DNA of 64,000 nt from a phage. The notes under the pieces were generated by a model that was not told where the DNA came from, did not search any database, and saw nothing but the letters and a program-made list of their open reading frames with translations. Position 1 is the stretch's first letter, and the number at the start of each line of letters is the position of its first letter. Shown piece after piece: positions 2,758-47,935 of this stretch. Location of the stretch: sequence record PZ049338.1; one strand, written 5' to 3'. The position numbers and the translations under genes are program-made.

Positions 2758-3378
2758 TTACGCAGCTTTCTTGCTTGCTGCCTTGCTGCGCAGTTCACGC
2801 ATATTTTCAGCGGTGAACAGATCGTTGATGGCTTTAATGGCCATGTTACGCAGTACATCGGTATTCGCGCCGTTCTCAATCGCTTGCTGCAATTGGGATT
2901 GGATAGACGAGCGGATTGATTTGGCGGACTTATCCAAATCATATGACTTAGCATCGCGCTCCTTAGTCTTATTGGTATGCAGCAGGGAAGAGTATTCCGC
3001 AGCTACGAAGGCTTTTACCGCGTTACGATATGCAACCTTCTGCTCCTTAGATACCGGAGCTTCACCTTTCGCCGCGTCATGTTTCCAGTTGGTTACGGTG
3101 TAGGCTTTTTCTTTCTTGTCTGCGGACGTGTTATCTTTATCCATTTTGATAACCAGTTTTGCCATAGTCGGCAGCAGGTCATTGATAACAGCACGTTGCA
3201 ATTGTGGGAAACGTTTAATTGCATTGATGAAAAATTCAATATTGGACGGATTGCAGGAGTCTTTACCCCAATAATCGGTCGCAACTACCTCAAAGGTTTT
3301 AACCAGACCGCGCGAACCTTCACGGAAGTTTTTAACGGATTCGATAATCAGCATTTGGGTAGCGTTCAATTTAGCCAT
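2758..3378 (-). CDS. hypothetical protein (206 aa), first sizeable gene of the leftward unit
   Basis: ORF track; GAGGAA SD 9 nt upstream of ATG at 3378. Confidence 0.6.
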   Translation of the reverse strand: MAKLNATQMLIIESVKNFREGSRGLVKTFEVVATDYWGKDSCNPSNIEFFINAIKRFPQLQRAVINDLLPTMAKLVIKMDKDNTSADKKEKAYTVTNWKHDAAKGEAPVSKEQKVAYRNAVKAFVAAEYSSLLHTNKTKERDAKSYDLDKSAKSIRSSIQSQLQQAIENGANTDVLRNMAIKAINDLFTAENMRELRSKAASKKAA

Positions 3379-3434
3379 GATAATATTCCTCGTTGTTTAC
3401 ATTGATTGAGTTATGAATCAGCACGATTCGATAA

Positions 3435-3466
3435 ATAGCCCACGCATCATGGGAATTATGGGCTAT
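3435..3466. other. inverted repeat (ATAGCCCA ... TGGGCTAT) just upstream of the first leftward gene
   Basis: 8-bp arms read directly; possible operator or RNA structure. Confidence 0.35.
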
Positions 3467-4238
3467 TCGAATCATCACTATTTGCGACTTGTCCAGTCGC
3501 CGGACTGATGCGCGCCTGATGGATACGGGGGCGAGTACCTTTTCACTTTACACATCAAATTTTACTCCCCGACTATCTGCGAATTAAAGATTAATCAGTG
3601 TTAATTGACGCAGTGACACGCCTCAAACGAGATAATCAACCATTGAAATCAATCAAGGCCGATTAAATAAAACTTGTCGTTGTTGTGCTACGTTGTCGCA
3701 TTCTTTATATAATCTTTCGGTAGTCTTAGTTGTGAGTAGGTAGAATTTTCATTCATTCGCTATCACTATTCGATTACGCGGCCTCTCGGCCTATCATCTT
3801 TTCAATCACTAGCCCACTTATTCTATTCAGTGAGATACCAAATTAACACTATACCGACGCTTAGATGTATAGATGATGTTCTAGTCTGGTTAAATCAGTC
3901 TTTACTTTGATGGCAACATGACACGTTGTGTAAACCGCTGGCACTTAAGCCGTCACGCATTGCGTTTTACGCCACCTTTTCAACCTTCCTTGCAAGCCTT
4001 GCGACTTTTAAGGTCGGGGCAAACTACTCCGGCTAAGTATTCAGTGTCTTATGTTTCCCACTGTTACCCGCTTTCGTCAATAAGCCGTAATTTAAAACCA
4101 TCCGTTAATCAGGTATGATTGCCACATTGTCGGGGGGAAGTATCCGACTGATGTTTACCGTTGGTTATACGGCGGGCTATTGCCCCTTAAGGTGCGGCCT
4201 ATGTGGTAGGCTGCCTTTGATGGGTAATGATTAACCTA

Positions 4239-4248
4239 TCCCATCTAT
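4239..4248 (+). promoter_or_regulatory. TCCCATCTAT motif copy 1
   Basis: exact 10-mer, repeated 4 times in the control region. Confidence 0.35.
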
Positions 4249-4269
4249 TTACTACTGGATAACTAATCT

Positions 4270-4292
4270 AGTTAATCCACATATATTAAGAG
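4270..4292 (-). promoter_or_regulatory. 23-bp repeated element, inverted copy (CTCTTAATATATGTGGATTAACT on minus strand)
   Basis: 1 mismatch to copies at 25156-25178 and 47913-47935. Confidence 0.4.
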
Positions 4293-4315
4293 ATAATCCC
4301 TTAATACGTCCTACT

Positions 4316-4351
4316 TAAAACATTCTAGGTTATCCCTTCCTACCTTGTCAA
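4316..4351 (-). promoter_or_regulatory. sigma70-type promoter P1 (leftward): -35 TTGACA 4351-4346, -10 TAGAAT 4327-4322, 18-nt spacer
   Basis: hexamers read directly; AT-rich upstream. Confidence 0.5.
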
Positions 4352-4426
4352 CCTTACTTAGAAAATTCTTTCTTCTGGTTGACTCACCTGATAGTTACTT
4401 GGCTATTCAGCTTCACTATCTGGTAT

Positions 4427-4463
4427 GTGGTAGATTATAGGTTTAACCTTTCTACCTTGTCAA
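4427..4463 (-). promoter_or_regulatory. sigma70-type promoter P2 (leftward): -35 TTGACA 4463-4458, -10 TATAAT 4439-4434, 18-nt spacer
   Basis: consensus hexamers; shares CTACCTTGTCAA context with P1; AT-rich UP-like region. Confidence 0.6.
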
Positions 4464-4683
4464 TAAGATATTTTAATTTATCTTGCTGACCTTTACTACC
4501 TATCAGGCTTTCGCGTTGTTGCTGCGTCGTCCTGATATGATTAACTATACGCAATCTTTTCAGATATGCAAACTAATATTTTAATTATTTTCTAACTTTC
4601 TTTCATCTCACTGATTTATAACGGATTATTTCTTGATATTCTTTCTTGATTCAGTGGATAAGATACGGGATACGGCTTATCTA

Positions 4684-4693
4684 TCCCATCTAT
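4684..4693 (+). promoter_or_regulatory. TCCCATCTAT motif copy 2
   Basis: exact 10-mer. Confidence 0.35.
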
Positions 4694-4894
4694 AGCGTCA
4701 CCTTTCCACCTGGACAAATTGGAACATCAATCACCTTATCTATTCCCTACCTTTCCAGCTCATAGATTCATGCCTGATTGATGATCTTTCTTGTGAGCTG
4801 GAAGCTAAGAGATAACACCGCATGAATTAAAACTAGATAAAGGGCACTAGATAGAAACATGCGGAACGTTATCCCATACGTCTTAATTGCTATT

Positions 4895-4932
4895 ACACGG
4901 AAGAAAGGAAAGGAAGAAAGGAAGAAAGGAAG
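4895..4932 (+). repeat. polypurine tract (GGAAGAAAGGAAAGGAAGAAAGGAAGAAAGGAAGA)
   Basis: read directly. Confidence 0.7.
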
Positions 4933-5040
4933 ATACACCATACGGATTAATGCTTATCAAACTATCGTCGGGTAACGGTGCAATGATTAAGATTGATGCG
5001 ACCAATGGTCGTGTTATGACCTGCGGTCATGCGTACCTAT

Positions 5041-5198
5041 TATCAAAGTCAACAATCAAACGATGATTATCAAAGACGATTATCAAACGATAACTATCAA
5101 AGACGATTATCAAACGATAACCATCAAAGGATAACTATCAAAGGATAACTATCAAAGGATAACTATCAAAGGATAACTATCAAAGGATAACTATCAAA
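5041..5198. repeat. tandem array, about 12 units of 13-14 bp with core TATCAAAG/C (5 perfect GGATAACTATCAAA units at 5129-5198)
   Basis: read directly; iteron-like. Confidence 0.85.
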
Positions 5199-5803
5199 GG
5201 CTGGCATTTTAAACACCGACGTTTTAGCCTCACAAAATAACGGGAAGAAATATAGCTCAGGATACTTACTATTAGTAAGAACATAACCATGCTGGTTATT
5301 ATTACCATGCTATCTATGCGATGGCTTATCATTAGGTAGCTAACTATAACATCGTGCATCATATTCCATTGGTATCATTAGATGACTAATCATGTGCGTG
5401 CATAGTATATCACTTGAGATAATAACGCATGAATACTATATCACTTCCCATTATCAGCGGAGGTATATTAATCCCGTGAACTAATAGCCAACTAATTACT
5501 TATGATATAGTTGCCAATGTTATTAATAGATGAGGTATGGTATCATTTGTATATTAATAATAAGCAAGCTATCTATTCACTGGATGCAATTACAGTATTG
5601 TGCTTCATCCAATAGGCTGTATAATCGTTGTTACATTGTTAACGGTATATGTGCCGACCCACTTCCCCCTTTTTAAAAGTTGTGTGCGCAGCTAGCCCCC
5701 TATACCACCGCGTGAGAGTATGAGAATGAGGATACCCTAACCAATTAATGGGTGAGAGTGATTGCCCGTGGGTATGACCTCCCATCAGACAGTACTCATG
5801 ACC

Positions 5804-5813
5804 TCCCATCTAT
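5804..5813 (+). promoter_or_regulatory. TCCCATCTAT motif copy 3 (GACCTCCCATC also at 5776-5786)
   Basis: exact 10-mer. Confidence 0.35.
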
Positions 5814-5872
5814 CAGTGTCAGTAGAGGCCGAAGGCCTTGGTCTTACCAAAGGTAAGTGACTTCCCATCTAT

Positions 5873-5882
5873 TTTCACTTTC
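5873..5882 (+). promoter_or_regulatory. TCCCATCTAT motif copy 4
   Basis: exact 10-mer. Confidence 0.35.
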
Positions 5883-5896
5883 TTTCAGTGTAAACA

Positions 5897-5920
5897 GTGT
5901 AAATCTGTAAGAAAATTGAA
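5897..5920 (+). promoter_or_regulatory. repeat TTCAGTGTAA-N-TCTGTAA copy 1 (candidate late promoter or packaging-related element)
   Basis: near-identical copy at 6168-6188; TAATCTGTAAG also at 12433-12443 upstream of capsid gene. Confidence 0.3.
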
Positions 5921-6167
5921 AATTTTGAACTAAAGTTCATGTACGAAGGAGATAGAGATTGATAAGAGATTCTTAAACAGTTTCTTATATATCTCCTTCT
6001 TATCCATTCTTATATATCCTCTCTTCTCTCCTCTATAAAAGCCCCTCTTATATTTAAAAATCCATAAACCAATTACGCTGAACAAGAAGAAAGTATAAAG
6101 GAGGTTATGACCTTCCATCTGATTGATAAGATGAGTACCCATCAACTATTTTAATCTTTTCAGTGTA

Positions 6168-6188
6168 AGTCTGTAATGTTTTCCATTT
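6168..6188 (+). promoter_or_regulatory. repeat TTCAGTGTAA-N-TCTGTAA copy 2
   Basis: see copy 1; about 135 bp upstream of first late gene. Confidence 0.3.
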
Positions 6189-6322
6189 ATCAGTGCTATA
6201 TGTAACTGTAGCATCTATAAGGTTTATGTAATTAATAAATAGATAGATGGGTGGATGGTGGGAACTACATTCGCTGGAAGCGAAACTATTGCTTCTGGCA
6301 ATTATTAATTGAAGGAGTGAAC

Positions 6323-6709
6323 ATGTCTGACAATAACGAATTACTTGATTCCATTGTTGAAGGTCGCTCCGTCAAGACTGGACAGTTTGTGAAGGGTAAT
6401 ACTCAAGGTAAGGGCCGTCCGAAAGGTAGCCGAAACAAAATGACTCAACGAATGTTGAATCGTGTTGCTGAACGAAGTGAAGATGGTTTGTCTATGGAAG
6501 AAATCATGATGGATATCGCCCAAGACCCTCAAATGCCAGCAGAGCTTCGCTTTAAAGCAGCAGCTAAAGTTTCTGACCTCGTTTATCCTAAAGCATCTTC
6601 TGTTGAAGTTAAGATGGACGATAAAGAAAGCATGACTAAAGAACAGATTGATGCTCGCCTTAAAGCTTTGCTTAGTGGTGGCCATACAACTGAAGACACT
6701 GAGGACTAA
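6323..6709 (+). CDS. putative DNA-binding protein / terminase small subunit candidate (128 aa) with AT-hook-like GRPKGSR motif
   Basis: start moved to internal ATG 6323 (GAAGGAG SD); sits 2 genes upstream of large terminase; function by position only. Confidence 0.4.
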   Translation: MSDNNELLDSIVEGRSVKTGQFVKGNTQGKGRPKGSRNKMTQRMLNRVAERSEDGLSMEEIMMDIAQDPQMPAELRFKAAAKVSDLVYPKASSVEVKMDDKESMTKEQIDARLKALLSGGHTTEDTED

Positions 6710-6948: not shown

Positions 6949-7276
6949 ATTCCTTGCCAGCCAGCGAGGTTGACTTTCGTCGGGTAAGTCGTGAAAGAAC
7001 CCGACCGCGAATTCAAAGTCTAGCTAGGGTGACAAGAGTATGACAGGCTGTCCTAGATAAGTGTCGGTACTCAACTAGATGTTGTATTGGATGTTAGGTA
7101 AGTCAAGAGAGACAAGCCACGGTCGGGGTCGTCCACGTTAAACATTAAAACCCCGCCCCTCGAATACACGACTGAAGATTTTCCAAATGACTAAAGGTTC
7201 AGAAAATTTTGCAGTTGCCGCTTTGCGGATTAGGGTGAGAGCCCTCGAAAGGTTTATAGTATACACGGAGGTAAGG

Positions 7277-8761
7277 ATGGATTTTAATGAAATCGACTTA
7301 GACTCCCTTCCGGAACATATCAAGTGGGAAATTATTGACTTACTAGAGGAAAGGGAAAGGGTCATTAAATATAATCGGATTAACGAATTCGAACCCTACG
7401 AGTTCCAAAAGAATTTTTATTCTGCAAGTGCTAAATTCAAAAGACGCTTCCTTTGTGCGGCTAACCGAGTTGGTAAGTCTTACTCTGAAGCGGTAGAAGT
7501 GTTTTATCATTTGTCAGGTCTGTACCCTGAATGGTGGGACGGACACAGATTTAAGAAACCAATCCTCTTATGGGCTGTTGGTATCACCGGTGACTCAACT
7601 CGAAAGGTGTTGCAGAAGGAGTTGTTTGGTACACCGATGGGCAAAGACCAAGATGCATTGGGAACAGGCGCTATCCCTCGTGACCTGATTGACATTGAGA
7701 ACATCGAGAAAGACGGTAACATCATCAAAATCGCAAAGGTTAAGCATCATGATAAAAATGGTGACTTTGATGGTTGGTCTACTATCGAATTCCGCTCAAC
7801 TCAACAGGGTGAGCACGTACTGATGGGTGCGACTGTAGATTATATATGGTTAGATGAAGAAGACCCGTTCAAGTCTATGGAAATCTATGCACAGTGCGTT
7901 ACTCGTACTGCTACTACTGGTGGTTTGATTACCATCACCGCTACTCCTGAGAACGGTTTGACGAAACTGGTAGACCTGTTCATGAAAGACACGTCAGGTT
8001 ACTTATATTTTCAGAATGCGACATGGGATGATGCTCCCCACTTAGATGAAGAAACTAAAAAAGAGTTGTTAGCATCTATTCCGACATGGCAGCACGAAAT
8101 GCGAAGCAGGGGGATTCCAATGATGGGCGAAGGTTTGATTTACGATATTGCAGAGTCTTCTATTATTACAGAGCCGATTGAGATTCCATCTCACTGGCGT
8201 AGACTTGCAGCAGTTGATATTGGTATCAGTCACGATACTGCGGTTGTATGGACAGCTTACGATGCTGCTACTGACTGTATCTATGTATATGACTGCTACT
8301 CAGCAGATGCGGGCGTTCCTGCTATGCACGCTACAGCTATTAATGCTCGTGGCAACTGGATTCCTGTTATTCTTCCACACGATGCTGATAACACTGAACG
8401 TGGTTCAGGTCGTAGTGTCGCGTCTTATTATGCAGAGGCTGGTGTCAACGTGATGCCTGAGACGTTCTATAATCCACTGGATTGGACGGGTAAGAAGAAT
8501 AACTTCGTAGAACCGGGCATTATGGAAATCCTTCAAAGGATGAAGACTGGTCGCTTTAAAGTGTTTAGCACTTGTGGCAAGTTCTTCGAAGAAATGCGTC
8601 GTTATCACCGTAAAGATGGCAAGATTGTCAAAGAATTCGATGATACAATGGACGCAGCACGATATTCAGCACTCTCAGTAATTGGACGTGGTGTAAGTGC
8701 AGGTGAAGCAAGTGCTGGCTACAATGCAGCATTCAATGATAACTGGAATTACAATTACTAA
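7277..8761 (+). CDS. terL: terminase large subunit (ATPase/nuclease)
   Basis: start moved to ATG 7277 (GGAGG SD); Walker A-like AANRVGKS; about 495 aa; position upstream of portal. Confidence 0.8.
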   Translation: MDFNEIDLDSLPEHIKWEIIDLLEERERVIKYNRINEFEPYEFQKNFYSASAKFKRRFLCAANRVGKSYSEAVEVFYHLSGLYPEWWDGHRFKKPILLWAVGITGDSTRKVLQKELFGTPMGKDQDALGTGAIPRDLIDIENIEKDGNIIKIAKVKHHDKNGDFDGWSTIEFRSTQQGEHVLMGATVDYIWLDEEDPFKSMEIYAQCVTRTATTGGLITITATPENGLTKLVDLFMKDTSGYLYFQNATWDDAPHLDEETKKELLASIPTWQHEMRSRGIPMMGEGLIYDIAESSIITEPIEIPSHWRRLAAVDIGISHDTAVVWTAYDAATDCIYVYDCYSADAGVPAMHATAINARGNWIPVILPHDADNTERGSGRSVASYYAEAGVNVMPETFYNPLDWTGKKNNFVEPGIMEILQRMKTGRFKVFSTCGKFFEEMRRYHRKDGKIVKEFDDTMDAARYSALSVIGRGVSAGEASAGYNAAFNDNWNYNY

Positions 8762-25155: not shown

Positions 25156-25178
25156 CTCTTTATATATGTGGATTAACT
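25156..25178 (+). promoter_or_regulatory. 23-bp repeated element CTCTTTATATATGTGGATTAACT (copy A)
   Basis: identical to 47913-47935; inverted near-copy at 4270-4292. Confidence 0.45.
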
Positions 25179-30468: not shown

Positions 30469-31285
30469 TATTTGTATCCTTACTTAGTTCATAATCTAAC
30501 CAGTCCCAGCTAAACAGGTTGTCTGCTGTTTGACCGATGTATAGTAAACGTGCTTGTTCAAGCATAACTTCTTCGTAATTCTCACCAAATACCTTTTTGT
30601 ATTCAGCGGAAACCACATCAAACATTTCCCTCACAGTAGTAAGACCATCCAACAACTTGATAGCTGTTGCCTCACCAACGCCTTTACGACGCAGTTGAAG
30701 TTTACCACCCCACATGACTTCTTTTCGAATACCACATCCGGGAATGTTATCGGTATTGTCTCCAGTCAGCATTTGCTGAAAGAAGAATAATTTAGATTCG
30801 AACTCTGGAACCCAATGTTTCAGAACTTCTGGTTGTCTATCACCACAAGCCCATCTATAATGCCAACCAAAACAAGTCCACATGTCCTTGTCACGAGTAG
30901 CAATCAGTGTATTCTCAGGGTCATTACGCTGCTCTATTGCCATCCAGTCGTCAGCCTCAATACCATCCACAATGATGTGGTTATAATATTTGACTATATG
31001 CTTCTCAACTGTTTCGTAATGGAAAGGCCTCGCTGTGTTTGGGTCACGATTACCCTTGTACTCCTGCTGAACAGCAACCTCATTTCTGAAATTACCTTTA
31101 CCAGACAATGCACAAATGTAACTGTCTCCCTTGTTAATCTTAATGACATGACGTATTAAATCATCTACAAGCTTAACAATCTCTGTCTCGGGTGCCGGTA
31201 TATACTCACCCTTAATGTAAGGATGAGCAGCTTTAATAGCACCAATCTGATACCGAAGAATGTCAGCGTCAATCAGTATACGCAT
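30314..31285 (-). CDS. 5'-3' exonuclease (FEN / T7 gene 6-like)
   Basis: YKGNRD and DxD-rich segments resemble recalled T7 gp6 (YKANRK). Confidence 0.7.
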   Translation of the reverse strand: MRILIDADILRYQIGAIKAAHPYIKGEYIPAPETEIVKLVDDLIRHVIKINKGDSYICALSGKGNFRNEVAVQQEYKGNRDPNTARPFHYETVEKHIVKYYNHIIVDGIEADDWMAIEQRNDPENTLIATRDKDMWTCFGWHYRWACGDRQPEVLKHWVPEFESKLFFFQQMLTGDNTDNIPGCGIRKEVMWGGKLQLRRKGVGEATAIKLLDGLTTVREMFDVVSAEYKKVFGENYEEVMLEQARLLYIGQTADNLFSWDWLDYELSKDTNNGEVLSSDVSECESGSICEHGESGSGELCTELDSVYYDDERPDIGDDPSIL

Positions 31286-31476: not shown

Positions 31477-32046
31477 TTAACTCTGGAAGTTTACTGATTC
31501 TCTGTCAATGTTAGCGACTAATTGACTTCGAATACGATGGAGACTGACGTAAATGTTATTTGAAGACATGCCATACTTATTGGCAACATCTTTAGTCGTG
31601 AGGTTCTTCAGGTAAACATCGGTGAACAATTCACGTTCTGATTCCTTAAGAGTCTCAAAAGCTCTCTGAACAAACGAGGAAGCTTCATCGGCTAGTAACT
31701 CACGAACAGGGTCAGTTAACCCATTATCATGGCATTCAAATTCGAGGACATTATCGTACATCTCCGTATCAACTCTGTCGAACTCTCGGCGTACATAACC
31801 ATAACGAACATTGTTCGCAATAGTACCTATAACACCGCCTAACTTATCCCACTGGATTCTGTCCCAATACTGCCAAATCCTTAGCAGAGTTTCTTGAGCC
31901 AAATCTTCAGCCAGATGGTAATCTTTTTCCATGTAGTAGAATTGTTTCTGGAGAGGTTTCCAGAACTCTTCGTACAACTCTTCAAAAGTATATGTTTCTC
32001 GTTTTGGAGTAGGGGCACTAATTCTCTTAGCCATCATACATTCCAT
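31477..32046 (-). CDS. ECF-type sigma factor (regions 2 and 4)
   Basis: DLAQETLLRIWQYWDRI (region 2-like) and LTTKDVANKYGMSSNNIYVSLHRIRSQL (region 4 HTH). Confidence 0.7.
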   Translation of the reverse strand: MECMMAKRISAPTPKRETYTFEELYEEFWKPLQKQFYYMEKDYHLAEDLAQETLLRIWQYWDRIQWDKLGGVIGTIANNVRYGYVRREFDRVDTEMYDNVLEFECHDNGLTDPVRELLADEASSFVQRAFETLKESERELFTDVYLKNLTTKDVANKYGMSSNNIYVSLHRIRSQLVANIDRESVNFQS

Positions 32047-46568: not shown

Positions 46569-46635
46569 GACTTAATCCTTTTCCATGTCATTAAGCTTGC
46601 TGCGGGTATTACTTAGTGCCTTAGGTTAGATAACA

Positions 46636-47310
46636 TTACAGAGTGTCATAGTAGTCTGCGCGATTATGCAGACACCAGTCACCCGACTCAACACGGTTAC
46701 TGTCGCCTTGGTCTTCATCAATGTGATAAATCCAAGCCTTTGCGAAGGAACCATCATCCAGTTGGATTTCAACCTGCGTACGGTTATAGAAACCATTCTC
46801 AGGGTCACAGGCACTGTACCCTTCCAGCATGTCGTATGCACCAGTCAGACCTTCCAGAGGTGCTTCAAATACATCAACAACAACCTGCTTGCCAGACTTG
46901 TTAGCCTTAAGGTTCACGGAAGGGAAGTAGGAGCCACCGTAGCGATATAAATCGAACTGGTCTACAGTCACACCCTTACTTACAAATTCACCGCCGCCAC
47001 GAGCGTTTACGTGGAAATTCTGCATGTTGCGACGCAGAGAGCCATAAGTTGCGATGAATACTTTACCGTCTGAAGGAATTACTAAGTTCTTTGACATTAC
47101 TTGTCCTGTTTTAGGTTGTAGATAATATTTAACTTCGACAAATCGCCATGTGTTCTGGAGGTTCTCTGCCATTTCTTTTGCTTCTGGGTAAGTTAAGCCA
47201 CAGCCAAGCTGATAACCTTCCTCACCCTTACTCATGCGACCAATCAGTAAATAACGAACTTCATGGTCACCTGTTAGTGGTTCTTTAATTGAGAGCTTCA
47301 TCTTATACAC
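46636..47310 (-). CDS. gamma-glutamyl cyclotransferase-like (AIG2/GGCT fold) domain protein
   Basis: FIATYGSLRR ... DMLEGY ... YNRTQV fits GGCT pattern. Confidence 0.55.
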   Translation of the reverse strand: MYKMKLSIKEPLTGDHEVRYLLIGRMSKGEEGYQLGCGLTYPEAKEMAENLQNTWRFVEVKYYLQPKTGQVMSKNLVIPSDGKVFIATYGSLRRNMQNFHVNARGGGEFVSKGVTVDQFDLYRYGGSYFPSVNLKANKSGKQVVVDVFEAPLEGLTGAYDMLEGYSACDPENGFYNRTQVEIQLDDGSFAKAWIYHIDEDQGDSNRVESGDWCLHNRADYYDTL

Positions 47311-47912: not shown

Positions 47913-47935
47913 CTCTTTATATATGTGGATTAACT
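47913..47935 (+). promoter_or_regulatory. 23-bp repeated element CTCTTTATATATGTGGATTAACT (copy B)
   Basis: identical to 25156-25178; 10 nt from start codon of 47367-47903. Confidence 0.45.

What the first reader, a model, noticed from the sequence alone, without database searches (positions are those of the whole stretch)
4316..4463. Two tandem near-consensus sigma70 promoters directing leftward transcription
Seen in sequence: on the minus strand, TTGACA-18 nt-TATAAT (4463-4434) and TTGACA-18 nt-TAGAAT (4351-4322), each embedded in a repeated CTACCTTGTCAA context with AT-rich upstream DNA. Inference: these are host-RNAP early promoters that start the infection programme before the phage sigma factor takes over.
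Basis: partly seen in the sequence, partly recalled or inferred. Interest (0 to 1): 0.45.

Follow-up and report, generated by a model that had tools for sequence, protein, structure and literature searches.

The report
Tandem early host-polymerase promoters of a phage
These are the two strong start signals that the bacterial RNA polymerase most likely uses to begin reading a 7-11-like Salmonella phage genome; this kind of promoter is already known, but they drive an unusual 940-base folded, non-coding RNA leader that has not been described.

Summary
TTGACA-18-TATAAT (4463-4434) and TTGACA-18-TAGAAT (4351-4322) lie on the minus strand. They are the only matches of 11/12 or better in the 64 kb, and both are invariant in the two closest phages.

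The window is a Grimontviridae phage, about 92% identical here to the plasmid-dependent phages Hi226 and Lu221 and more distantly related to Salmonella phage 7-11. In 7-11 a tandem pair of leftward sigma70 promoters sits at the same place, between the same two conserved sequence blocks. That pair was validated by primer extension (Lavysh 2022). The window also encodes a sigma factor 82% identical to the 7-11 late sigma factor. One caveat: in 7-11, sigma70 transcription is not shut off later in infection.

As a promoter finding this is a new member of a known kind, and ordinary.

Two side findings were not expected:
- The promoters feed a roughly 940-nt ORF-free leader whose first 214 nt form a multi-helix RNA. 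It shows extensive compensatory base changes across four sequence lineages and has no Rfam match.
- The leader starts with a 23-nt box. Reverse-complement copies of this box overlap the Shine-Dalgarno sites of particular downstream genes, and the box sequence co-varies with the leader copy in 7-11 and GAP52.

The function of the leader and the box is inferred, not shown.

The parts
4434..4463 (-). Early promoter P-up: -35 TTGACA (4463-4458), 18-nt spacer, -10 TATAAT (4439-4434). Predicted start near A4428 or A4426.
   Evidence: 12/12; unique in the window. Invariant in Hi226 and Lu221. Corresponds in position to 7-11 promoter 222-194, which shares TTGACAAGG.
4322..4351 (-). Early promoter P-down: -35 TTGACA (4351-4346), 18-nt spacer, -10 TAGAAT (4327-4322). 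Predicted start near A4316 or A4315.
   Evidence: 11/12. Hexamers invariant in Hi226 and Lu221. Aligns with 7-11 promoter 129-101 in an unsupervised MAFFT alignment; that 7-11 promoter was validated by primer extension.
4544..4572 (-). Candidate third, weaker promoter TTTGCA-17-TATAGT, with an A/T-rich stretch immediately upstream.
   Evidence: 9/12. Hexamers conserved in Hi226 and Lu221. Matches in position the predicted 7-11 site 316-288. Spacings 109 and 112 bp here, against 94 and 93 bp in 7-11.
4577..4632 (-). Conserved block A, upstream of the promoter cluster (AATAATCCGTTATAAATCAGTGAGATGAAAG...).
   Evidence: blastn with word size 7: 80-81% identity over 59 columns to 7-11 and SE131, within otherwise unalignable DNA.
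4270..4292 (-). 23-nt box CTCTTAATATATGTGGATTAACT at about +25 to +47 of the P-down transcript. It is block B and the 5' edge of the structured leader.
   Evidence: 92% identical to 7-11 and SE131. Repeated in the genome in the opposite orientation.
4084..4297 (-). Leader RNA domain 1. A closing helix P1, hairpins H0 (4279-4256), H1 (4245-4219), H2/H3 (4217-4189), H4 (4185-4174), H5 (4172-4158), H6 (4148-4129) and H7 (4120-4096), plus a loop-to-strand pairing (PK) between the H3 loop and GUGG after H6.
   Evidence: Curated arms are 99% canonically paired (408/413 cells) in 8 sequences of 4 lineages. On an unfitted MAFFT alignment, 90.5% of cells are paired against 28-46% for slid partners; 17 of 32 pairs change on both sides against 0-5. 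Covariance model hit of 222 bits. No Rfam match.
3379..4316 (-). Whole untranslated leader, about 940 nt, from the P-down start to the first early start codon.
   Evidence: No sense-strand ORF longer than 35 aa, and none conserved between lineages; tblastx hits fall in all frames and both strands. MFE -260 kcal/mol, z = -3.5 against shuffles. Leaders of 940-1280 nt in all seven other sequences compared: six phage genomes and one metagenome contig.
3425..3473 (-). Long interrupted hairpin about 35 nt upstream of the ribosome-binding site of the first early gene.
   Evidence: Identical predicted shape in the window and in 7-11 despite different sequence: GAUUCGA/UCGAAUC against GUUUCGG/CCGAAGC, and UAGCCCA/UGGGCUA against UAGACCU/AGGUCUA.
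2758..3378 (-). First early ORF (206 aa), homologue of 7-11 gp151. Function unknown.
   Evidence: 74-76% identical to the 7-11 and SE131 proteins.
47913..47935 (+). Reverse-complement copy of the box. On the leftward mRNA it reads AGUUAAUCCACAUAUAUAAAGAG and overlaps the Shine-Dalgarno site of ORF 47903-47367.
   Evidence: The downstream ORF is the homologue of 7-11 gp094 and GAP52 gp043, which carry the box at the same place.
25156..25178 (+). Second reverse-complement copy of the box, in the gene-free convergence region between the late (rightward) and leftward clusters, next to a terminator hairpin.
   Evidence: A copy lies at the matching place in 7-11, at 30498.
31492..32034 (-). Phage sigma factor gene (context for the interpretation).
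   Evidence: tblastn with SaPh711_gp47: 81.8% identity over 181 aa, E = 1e-105.
6174..6199 (+). Late-promoter-like site GTAATG-16-GCTA facing the gene 1 and terminase cluster (context: the divergent promoter of the same control region).
   Evidence: Read. The 7-11 late consensus GTAAtg-(16)-aCTA, with P1 upstream of gene 1, comes from Lavysh 2022. One mismatch to that consensus; not tested further.

Best explanation
The two sites are the main early promoters of a 7-11-like (Moazamivirus-type, Grimontviridae) podophage. They are the counterparts of 7-11 promoters P151-2 and P151-3.

Inferred mechanism. After DNA entry, the host sigma70 holoenzyme binds the near-consensus -35 and -10 hexamers, probably helped by the A/T-rich DNA upstream. 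It starts leftward transcription near 4427 and 4316. A weaker third promoter at 4572-4544 probably adds to this. The two strong promoters are paralogous: they are copies of a 30-nt repeat.

Transcripts first cross a roughly 940-nt untranslated, highly structured leader, then enter the long leftward early gene cluster. In 7-11, transcription of the phage sigma factor gene initially depends on read-through from these promoters. That sigma factor then turns on the late promoters, including the divergent one at about 6174-6199.

Shown: the sequence features, their uniqueness in the window, their conservation and synteny, and the conserved RNA structure.
Shown in 7-11, not in this phage: sigma70-type early activity in vivo from 5 min after infection.
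Inferred: activity in this phage, the exact start sites, and any role of the leader.
For: Sequence and statistics.

Conservation: both hexamer pairs are invariant in Hi226 and Lu221.

Identity of the phage.

Synteny with 7-11: the promoter cluster is bracketed by conserved blocks A and B in the same order, upstream of the gp151 homologue.

Experimental validation of the 7-11 pair: primer extension, with products from 5 min after infection (Lavysh 2022, PMC8948821). I mapped their primers to 7-11 positions 291-272 and 42-61, which bracket 222-194 and 129-101. An independent prediction ranked these two as the strongest in the 7-11 genome (Guzina 2015, PMC4331800).

Phage sigma factor present in the window.

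More distant relatives also carry strong leftward TTGACA-17-TAGAAT or TATAAT promoters at the head of the early cluster: GAP52 at 11/12 and Proteus phage P59 at 12/12.
Against: There is no transcript or in vitro data for this phage.

A consensus match alone is weak evidence in this group: only 2 of 5 consensus-like predictions in 7-11 were confirmed. The two that were confirmed are, however, the counterparts of these sites.

Both spacers are 18 bp, one more than the optimum; the 7-11 spacers are 17 bp.

The sequence between the conserved blocks is not alignable base by base between the two clades. Orthology of the individual promoters therefore rests on order and position, plus the shared TTGACAAGG.

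Hi226 and Lu221 are only 5-8% diverged from the window, so invariance of the hexamers there carries limited weight.
Confidence: 0.9

Rival explanations
1. Add-on rather than strict rival. The first product of the promoters, the structured leader, is itself a regulator. Its 5' box (CUCUUAAUAUAUGUGGAUUAACU) contains an anti-Shine-Dalgarno stretch. It pairs, in trans or over long range in cis, with reverse-complement boxes that overlap the ribosome-binding sites of selected leftward genes. That pairing would control their translation or create double-stranded processing sites. The analogy is the P1/P7 c4 antisense RNA, which is made from the leader of the operon it controls.
For: The box occurs once in sense orientation in the leader. 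In reverse-complement orientation it occurs at 47913-47935 and 25156-25178 (3 copies, 0 expected).

In 7-11 there are 1 sense and 4 antisense copies. In GAP52 there are 1 sense and 5 antisense copies.

Most antisense copies abut a start codon, and their CTCTT or CTCCTT end is the complement of the Shine-Dalgarno site.

The same gene family carries the box in three phages although the proteins are only 24-30% identical: window ORF 47903-47367, 7-11 gp094 and GAP52 gp043.

The box sequence differs between genomes (GTGGATTAACT, GTGGATTTACT, GTGCAATAATTA), but within each genome the leader copy and the target copies agree.
Against: Agreement of copies within a genome is equally expected if a genome-specific protein binds the box as DNA or RNA.

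One copy per genome in the window and in 7-11 lies in a gene-free 3' region, so it is not a ribosome-binding site.

The 3' half of the leader box is predicted to be paired within the leader (helices P1 and H0).

No expression data exist.
Confidence: 0.35
2. Add-on. The leader makes early transcription processive. It would work either as a boxA-type or put-type antitermination signal, or simply by being too structured for Rho to load. RNA polymerase started at these promoters could then read through tens of kilobases to reach the sigma factor gene.
For: Lavysh 2022 conclude that 7-11 early transcription must be antiterminated by a strategy 'that remains to be defined'.

At the same position, just downstream of the early promoters, relatives carry canonical boxA GCTCTTTAA(A/C/T)AA in the sense orientation: Proteus phage P59 (2 copies), Aeromonas phage LAh_8 (2), Kuravirus NJ01 (5) and GAP52 (1).

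The window's box begins UCUCUUAA. By my own recollection, not a tool result, this matches lambda boxA CGCUCUUA at 6 of 8 positions.

A 940-nt untranslated RNA would otherwise be an obvious Rho target (established knowledge of Rho-dependent termination).
Against: Neither the window nor 7-11 or SE131 has a canonical boxA anywhere in the sequence examined.

The window box lacks the G of GCUCUUUA.

The other copies of the box are antisense on the leftward transcripts, which a nut-like RNA signal does not explain.

I found no homologue of the '7-11 Q-like' protein gp136 in the window, although 12.5 kb of the genome lies outside it.
Confidence: 0.3
3. The promoters serve DNA replication: leftward transcription from them activates or primes an origin in the adjacent repeat-rich control region, as with the T7 primary origin or ColE1 RNA II. 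Starting the early mRNAs would then be a secondary role.
For: The promoters sit in a 2.8-kb gene-free, AT-rich region. It holds 11 tandem 14-bp units (5039-5200) and several CCCATCTAT-type repeats.

The box contains TGTGGATTA, which matches a DnaA box at 8 of 9 positions (sequence; consensus from memory).

The phage encodes a PolI-type polymerase and a primase-helicase (7-11 annotation).
Against: The repeats lie upstream of the promoters, not downstream.

In 7-11 the transcripts accumulate as early mRNA.

Nothing here tests origin function.
Confidence: 0.08
4. The matches are chance or relic sequences with no promoter activity.
For: Three of five consensus-like predictions in 7-11 gave no primer-extension product.
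Against: These are the only matches of 11/12 or better in 64 kb. They are tandem, co-oriented with the early genes, and located in the one large intergenic region. They are conserved. They sit at the same place as the two 7-11 promoters that were confirmed.
Confidence: 0.02

Closest known systems
Early promoters P151-2 and P151-3 of Salmonella phage 7-11 (Lavysh et al. 2022; predicted by Kropinski 2011 and by Guzina and Djordjevic 2015)
   Same: A tandem pair of leftward sigma70-type promoters with TTGACA -35 elements, plus a weaker third site upstream. It occupies the same slot between conserved blocks A and B, upstream of a leader about 1 kb long and the gp151 homologue. It is divergent from the gene 1 and terminase cluster, in a phage that encodes the same late sigma factor.
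   Different: Spacers are 18 bp rather than 17 bp. The -10 elements are closer to consensus (TATAAT and TAGAAT, against TAATCT and TATAGT). Promoter spacing is 112 bp rather than 93 bp. The two promoters here are copies of a 30-nt repeat. The surrounding sequence is not alignable. There is no experimental data for this phage.
Early promoter cluster of phiEco32 and other kuraviruses
   Same: Several sigma70-dependent promoters at the head of the leftward early cluster, in a prolate-headed podophage that later uses its own sigma factor.
   Different: phiEco32 has four early promoters, a middle gene class, and gp79, which shuts off sigma70 transcription. The 7-11 group lacks gp79. Kuravirus NJ01 has canonical boxA repeats in its early region, whereas the window has none.
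T7 A1/A2/A3 early promoters (from established knowledge; not tested here)
   Same: Two or three strong host-polymerase promoters in tandem, about 110-125 bp apart, next to a repeat-rich non-coding region. They feed a leader that contains long hairpins before the first early gene.
   Different: T7 switches to its own RNA polymerase, not to a sigma factor. The T7 leader is about 400 nt and is not known to form a multi-helix domain. There is no sequence relationship.
P1/P7 c4 antisense RNA (analogy for the leader box only; from established knowledge)
   Same: A structured RNA encoded in the leader of an operon, with sequence complementary to a ribosome-binding region further down the same operon.
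   Different: c4 is about 77 nt, is processed by RNase P, and controls a single target in a temperate phage's immunity system. Here the leader is about 940 nt, there are several targets spread over tens of kilobases, and neither processing nor any effect has been shown.

Membership tests
Bacterial sigma70 (housekeeping) promoter | -35 hexamer close to TTGACA | tested here: met
   TTGACA at both sites, 6/6.
Bacterial sigma70 (housekeeping) promoter | -10 hexamer close to TATAAT, with A at position 2 and T at position 6 | tested here: met
   TATAAT (6/6) and TAGAAT (5/6).
Bacterial sigma70 (housekeeping) promoter | Spacer of 17 +/- 1 bp | tested here: met
   18 bp at both sites, which is within range but not optimal.
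Bacterial sigma70 (housekeeping) promoter | Specific initiation by sigma70 holoenzyme about 7 nt downstream of the -10 element | not testable with these tools
   Needs in vitro transcription or 5'-end mapping. Shown only for the counterparts in 7-11.
Early promoter cluster of 7-11-like phages (P151-2 and P151-3) | Located between the gp151 homologue and the gene 1/terminase cluster, reading towards gp151 | tested here: met
   gp151 homologue at 3378-2758 on the minus strand. Gene 1 homologue at 6323-6709 and terminase at 7187-8761, both on the plus strand.
Early promoter cluster of 7-11-like phages (P151-2 and P151-3) | Same flanking conserved sequence blocks, in the same order | tested here: met
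   Block A (4632-4577) matches 7-11 429-374. Block B (4293-4270) matches 7-11 7-1 joined to 89916-89900. The promoters lie between the two blocks in both phages.
Early promoter cluster of 7-11-like phages (P151-2 and P151-3) | Genome encodes the gp47-type late sigma factor | tested here: met
   82% identity over 181 aa, at 32034-31492.
Early promoter cluster of 7-11-like phages (P151-2 and P151-3) | Transcripts appear by 5 min after infection and persist | not testable with these tools
   An experimental property, reported for 7-11 only.
boxA / nut-type antitermination site | boxA consensus GCUCUUUAACAA (rrn) or CGCUCUUA (lambda) on the transcript | tested here: not met
   The window has UCUCUUAAUAUA. 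There is no GCTCTTTAA anywhere in the window or in the 7-11 and SE131 loci, while P59, LAh_8, NJ01 and GAP52 have it in their early leaders.
boxA / nut-type antitermination site | All functional copies in sense orientation on the regulated transcripts | tested here: not met
   Only the leader copy is in sense orientation. The copies at 25156 and 47913 are antisense to the leftward transcripts.
Any described RNA family (Rfam 15) | Covariance-model match at or near the gathering score | tested here: not met
   No hit in the whole window at gathering thresholds. Only two chance-level hits (E = 0.8 and 6.4) in 3300-6300 at E <= 10, and neither lies in the leader.
Leader-encoded antisense RNA (P1/P7 c4 type) | Leader sequence complementary to a downstream ribosome-binding region of the same transcription unit | tested here: met
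   22 of 23 complementary positions, including the Shine-Dalgarno site of ORF 47903-47367. The same layout occurs in 7-11 and GAP52.
Leader-encoded antisense RNA (P1/P7 c4 type) | Processing to a discrete small RNA, and repression of the target | not testable with these tools
   Needs Northern blots or RNA-seq, and reporter assays.

The most novel reading that the evidence does not exclude
The promoters' first product is a previously undescribed, conserved, multi-helix leader RNA of 214 nt (core domain) to about 940 nt, found in Moazamivirus-type phages. Its 5' box acts through complementarity with boxes over the ribosome-binding sites of a conserved set of downstream genes (the gp094 and gp139 families). 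Alternatively, or in addition, it stands in for the canonical boxA antitermination signal that relatives carry at the same position. Either way, a lytic phage would begin infection by making a regulatory RNA before any protein.
Probability: 0.4. Interest if true: 0.65.

Novelty: new member of a known kind. Interest (0 to 1): 0.35.

Why it matters
As promoters they matter only for annotation. They fix the start of the early transcription unit of a plasmid-dependent phage related to Lu221 and Hi226. They also extend to a second clade the 7-11 scheme of sigma70 early promoters followed by a phage sigma factor for late genes.

The wider value lies in what they transcribe. A leader about 1 kb long and free of ORFs is unusual in a densely coded lytic phage genome. 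Its structure is conserved through many compensatory changes. It also carries a box that co-varies with boxes over the ribosome-binding sites of the same genes in three diverged phages.

Lavysh et al. (2022) left open how early transcription from these promoters reaches genes tens of kilobases away. The leader, and the canonical boxA elements I found at the same position in relatives, give concrete and testable candidates.

Tried and rejected
**Known RNA families.** Rfam found nothing over the whole window at gathering thresholds, and only noise at E <= 10 over 3300-6300. No tRNA or tmRNA was found in the window.

**Searches for more relatives.**
- The gp151-family protein found only 7-11 itself in IMG/VR. 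It found nothing in metagenome or genome contigs.
- A DNA pattern for the box found nothing in IMG/VR, because the 7-11 record is cut inside it.
- A second DNA pattern found one extra metagenome contig, AKZA01001883.1. This gave a fourth lineage for the covariation test.

**Spread of the leader domain.** The covariance model of leader domain 1 finds all Moazamivirus-type leaders it could be run on. These are the window, Hi226, Lu221, SE131 and the metagenome contig, at 185-222 bits. It finds nothing credible in GAP52, Proteus phage P59, Aeromonas phage LAh_8 or Kuravirus NJ01. The domain as modelled is therefore clade-specific, or too diverged to detect.

**Coding leader.** Rejected. No conserved ORF exists, and tblastx similarity falls in all frames and on both strands.

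**Box as a gp47-type late promoter (GTAAtg-16-aCTA).** Rejected by inspection of the copies. The only exact consensus match in the window is at 46614-46639 on the minus strand.

**Box as one of the Guzina 2015 motifs (TGTGATGTTATA).** It is a different sequence.

**Pre-RBS hairpin as an intrinsic terminator.** The window has a weak U-rich tail, but 7-11 has none. I consider a conserved terminator unlikely.

**Shared spacer AGGTAGRAAGG as a regulator site.** It is not conserved in 7-11 beyond TTGACAAGG. I read it as a trace of local duplication.

**Physical genome ends and terminal repeats.** These cannot be located from sequence alone.
Full report
**1. The observation**

The minus strand reads ...cttaTTGACAaggtagaaaggttaaaccTATAATctaccaca... 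(4463-4434) and ...aaggTTGACAaggtaggaagggataaccTAGAATgttttaag... (4351-4322). The consensus scan scores these 12/12 and 11/12, both with 18-nt spacers.

My scan of all 64 kb on both strands found no other site at 11/12 or better. First-order Markov shuffles gave a mean of 0.05 perfect sites and 1.73 sites at 11/12 or better per window.

The two sites are copies of a 30-nt direct repeat, 83% identical (family D4). Both share TTGACAAGGTAGRAAGG. GC content falls to 0.32-0.35 around and upstream of them.

A weaker site, TTTGCA-17-TATAGT (4572-4544), lies 109 bp further upstream.

**2. Where this is**

The region 3300-6300 is 92-93% identical to two 76-kb Salmonella phages, PKM.Hi.22.6 and PKM.Lu.22.1. 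It has patchy 70-80% similarity to Salmonella phage 7-11 and its relatives.

Hi226 and Lu221 are prolate-headed, plasmid-dependent podophages of the family Grimontviridae. Their closest relatives are 7-11, SE131 and pSal-SNUABM-01 (PMC10782986).

The promoters lie in a 2.8-kb stretch with no credible genes (3379-6322). On one side is the first leftward ORF (3378-2758), which is 74% identical to 7-11 gp151. On the other side is the rightward gene 1 and terminase cluster.

**3. Comparison with 7-11**

The 7-11 record annotates leftward consensus-type promoters at 101-129 and 196-222. Guzina and Djordjevic (2015) ranked 101-129 and 194-222 as the two strongest sigma70 sites in that genome, with a third at 288-316.

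Lavysh et al. (2022) tested five predicted sigma70 promoters by primer extension on RNA from infected cells. Only '151-2 and 151-3' were confirmed. Their products appear at 5 min and persist through infection.

The numbering in that paper is ambiguous, so I mapped their primers. The '151_2,3' pair lies at 7-11 positions 291-272 and 42-61, which brackets exactly the tandem pair at 222-194 and 129-101. '151_1' is the distant site at 1001-1029.

In both phages the promoter cluster lies between the same two conserved blocks:
- Block A is window 4632-4577, about 80% identical to 7-11.
- Block B is window 4293-4270, 92% identical to 7-11.

Both phages have three sites in tandem. Spacings are 109 and 112 bp in the window, and 94 and 93 bp in 7-11. 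An unsupervised MAFFT alignment places the window's downstream promoter on the 7-11 promoter at 129-101. The hexamers are unchanged in Hi226 and Lu221.

The window also encodes a protein 82% identical to the 7-11 late sigma factor gp47. A GTAATG-16-GCTA site faces the gene 1 cluster (6174-6199), close to the published late consensus.

One qualification: in 7-11, sigma70 transcription is not shut off, and there is no gp79-type inhibitor.

**4. What the promoters transcribe**

From the downstream start (about 4316) to the first start codon (3378) there are about 940 nt. No sense-strand ORF exceeds 35 aa. All relatives have leaders of 940-1280 nt.

No ORF is conserved between lineages. Translated similarity falls in all frames and on both strands, which indicates nucleotide conservation rather than protein conservation.

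The leader folds better than shuffled controls (z = -3.5). It matches no Rfam family.

I aligned eight leaders:
- the window, Hi226 and Lu221;
- 7-11 and SeKF_80;
- SE131 and pSal-SNUABM-01;
- one metagenome contig found with a DNA pattern.

The first 214 nt after the start (window 4297-4084) contain a series of hairpins at fixed positions. Their sequences differ between lineages, but pairing is kept. Examples:
- H1 is GAUGGG/CCCAUC, UAGCGG/CCGCUA, UCUGACA/UGUCAGA or GUAUCAG/CUGAUAC, always with a 15-16-nt loop.
- H6 has six different five-pair versions.
- H3 always has a 7-nt loop. Its A(C/U)CAC pairs with GUG(G/A)U after H6, and the C-G to U-A switch has occurred twice.

Even within the 95%-identical Hi226, Lu221 and window trio there are double changes that keep pairs: A-U to G-C in H0, U-A to C-G in H5, U-A to C-G in H3, and U-A to G-U in H6.

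On the unfitted MAFFT alignment, the 32 pairs whose columns are consistent behave as follows:
- 90.5% of cells are paired, against 28-46% when partners are slid by 1-3 columns.
- 17 pairs change on both sides, against 0-5 in the slid controls.
- The covariation score is 0.49, against at most 0.11 in the slid controls.
- At most 1 of 500 shuffles reaches the observed value on any measure (0 of 500 on four of the five measures).

I derived the structure from these same sequences. That inflates the paired percentage, but it affects the two-sided-change counts less.

A covariance model built on this alignment recovers the Moazamivirus-type leaders at 185-222 bits. It finds nothing credible in GAP52, P59, LAh_8 or NJ01.

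Further downstream there are more compensated hairpins. One is a long interrupted hairpin at 3473-3425, just before the ribosome-binding site; its predicted shape is identical in the window and in 7-11.

The central part of the leader has been replaced between 7-11 and SE131, although they are 85-94% identical on either side.

**5. The box at the start of the leader**

The covariance model unexpectedly matched two short sites elsewhere in the window. These are copies of the 23-nt block B, CTCTT(A/T)ATATATGTGGATTAACT, at 25156-25178 and 47913-47935. Both are on the plus strand, so they are antisense to the leftward transcripts (3 copies, 0 expected).

Other genomes have the same layout:
- Hi226 has a further copy at 76294-76320.
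- 7-11 has four plus-strand copies near 30498, 58832, 71784 and 84127, besides the leader copy.

Most antisense copies lie immediately upstream of a leftward start codon. Their CTCTT or CTCCTT end is the complement of the Shine-Dalgarno sequence. One copy per genome lies in the gene-free convergence region beside the terminator.

I assembled the GAP52 genome to test whether this is general. It has a different box, TCTCTTATATAATGTGCAATAATTAC. This occurs once in sense orientation in the early leader and five times in antisense orientation, three of them directly beside annotated leftward gene starts.

The same gene family carries the box in the window (ORF 47903-47367), in 7-11 (gp094) and in GAP52 (gp043). 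Those proteins are only 24-30% identical. The gp139 family carries it in both 7-11 and Hi226.

So the position of the box is conserved, and its sequence changes in step with the leader copy. This fits RNA-RNA pairing between the leader and these start regions. It fits equally well a genome-specific protein that binds the box. I cannot separate the two explanations.

**6. boxA in relatives**

Strong leftward sigma70-type promoters head the early cluster in GAP52 (TTGACA-17-TAGAAT) and in Proteus phage P59 (TTGACA-17-TATAAT).

In P59, canonical boxA sequences GCTCTTTAA(A/C/T)AA follow the early promoters within about 20 nt, on the early sense strand. GAP52, Aeromonas phage LAh_8 and Kuravirus NJ01 also carry sense-strand boxA in their early regions, but I did not measure the distance to a promoter there. 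None occurs in the window, 7-11 or SE131.

Lavysh et al. noted that 7-11 must antiterminate early transcription by an undefined strategy. The boxA elements in relatives suggest a Nus-factor route in those phages. They raise the possibility that the structured leader, whose box begins UCUCUUAA, does the equivalent job here. The window box fails the boxA consensus test, so this remains an analogy only.

**7. Verdict**

The finding is real and correctly interpreted. As a promoter finding it is an ordinary new member of a known, experimentally characterised kind.

Two things deserve follow-up: the structured, ORF-free leader, and the anti-Shine-Dalgarno box shared with specific downstream genes. 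I found no description of either in the papers searched.

Noticed in passing
window 4084-4297 (minus strand); whole leader 3379-4316: Conserved multi-helix RNA domain at the 5' end of a roughly 940-nt ORF-free leader. It shows compensatory changes in at least eight helices across four lineages and has no Rfam match.
   Followed up: yes
window 4270-4292 (-), 25156-25178 (+), 47913-47935 (+); Hi226 76294-76320 (L017); 7-11 near 30498, 58832, 71784 and 84127 (L007, L018, L004); GAP52 30217, 30560, 37303, 52860, 66643 and 76624: A genome-specific box of 23-27 nt. One sense copy lies in the early leader. Several reverse-complement copies overlap the Shine-Dalgarno sites of particular leftward genes (the gp094 and gp139 families). 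Box sequence and leader copy change together between genomes.
   Followed up: partly
L014 4302 and 4479 (-); L015 4030 and 4520 (-); L016 1237-1930 (-, 5 copies); L019 202 (-): Canonical boxA (GCTCTTTAA[A/C/T]AA) on the early sense strand in Proteus phage P59, Aeromonas phage LAh_8, Kuravirus NJ01 and Cronobacter phage GAP52; in P59 it lies just downstream of the early promoters. It is absent from the window, 7-11 and SE131. I found no report of it in the papers searched.
   Followed up: partly
window 5039-5200: About 11 tandem 14-bp units (AACTATCAAAGGAT and variants) in the gene-free control region upstream of the promoters. They resemble iterons or a packaging signal. The array differs in length from Hi226 and Lu221; the alignment breaks there.
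   Followed up: no
window 4236-4248, 4681-4693, 5775-5872, 6108-6122; inverted at 6240-6254: Repeated CCCATCTAT / TGACCTCCCATCTAT motifs scattered through the control region in both orientations. Similar 'gatagatggga' and 'cccatctgt' motifs occur in the 7-11 control region.
   Followed up: no
window 3425-3473 (minus strand): A 49-nt interrupted hairpin just before the first early ribosome-binding site. Its predicted shape in 7-11 is identical despite many substitutions. It is a candidate RNase III or processing site. Its loop contains AUG triplets but has no Shine-Dalgarno site.
   Followed up: partly
window 6174-6199 (+) and 46614-46639 (-): Matches to the 7-11 late (gp47) promoter consensus GTAAtg-16-aCTA. 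The first is GTAATG-16-GCTA upstream of the gene 1 homologue. The second is an exact GTAATG-16-ACTA within the leftward cluster.
   Followed up: partly
window 31492-32034 (minus strand): Phage sigma factor gene, 82% identical to SaPh711_gp47.
   Followed up: partly
7-11 leader against SE131 leader (L003/L004 against L005 1195-1801): The central 500-600 nt of the leader is non-homologous between 7-11/SeKF_80 and SE131/pSal-SNUABM-01, although the flanks are 85-94% identical. A module of the RNA appears to have been exchanged. A hairpin AGAUAGUAAUAUCU is shared by 7-11 and the GAP52 leader.
   Followed up: partly
window 4899-4933: Purine-rich short tandem repeats (GAAAGGAA x3 and GGAAGAAAGGAAA x2) in the control region.
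   Followed up: no
L019/L020 (GAP52 leader, just after the box): GAP52 has a possible 35-aa hydrophobic ORF (MVTYSNELTSKQMLKSANKFWLIVGLTVAALIVIL) between the box and a GC-rich structured stretch. Neither the window nor 7-11 has an equivalent ORF.
   Followed up: no
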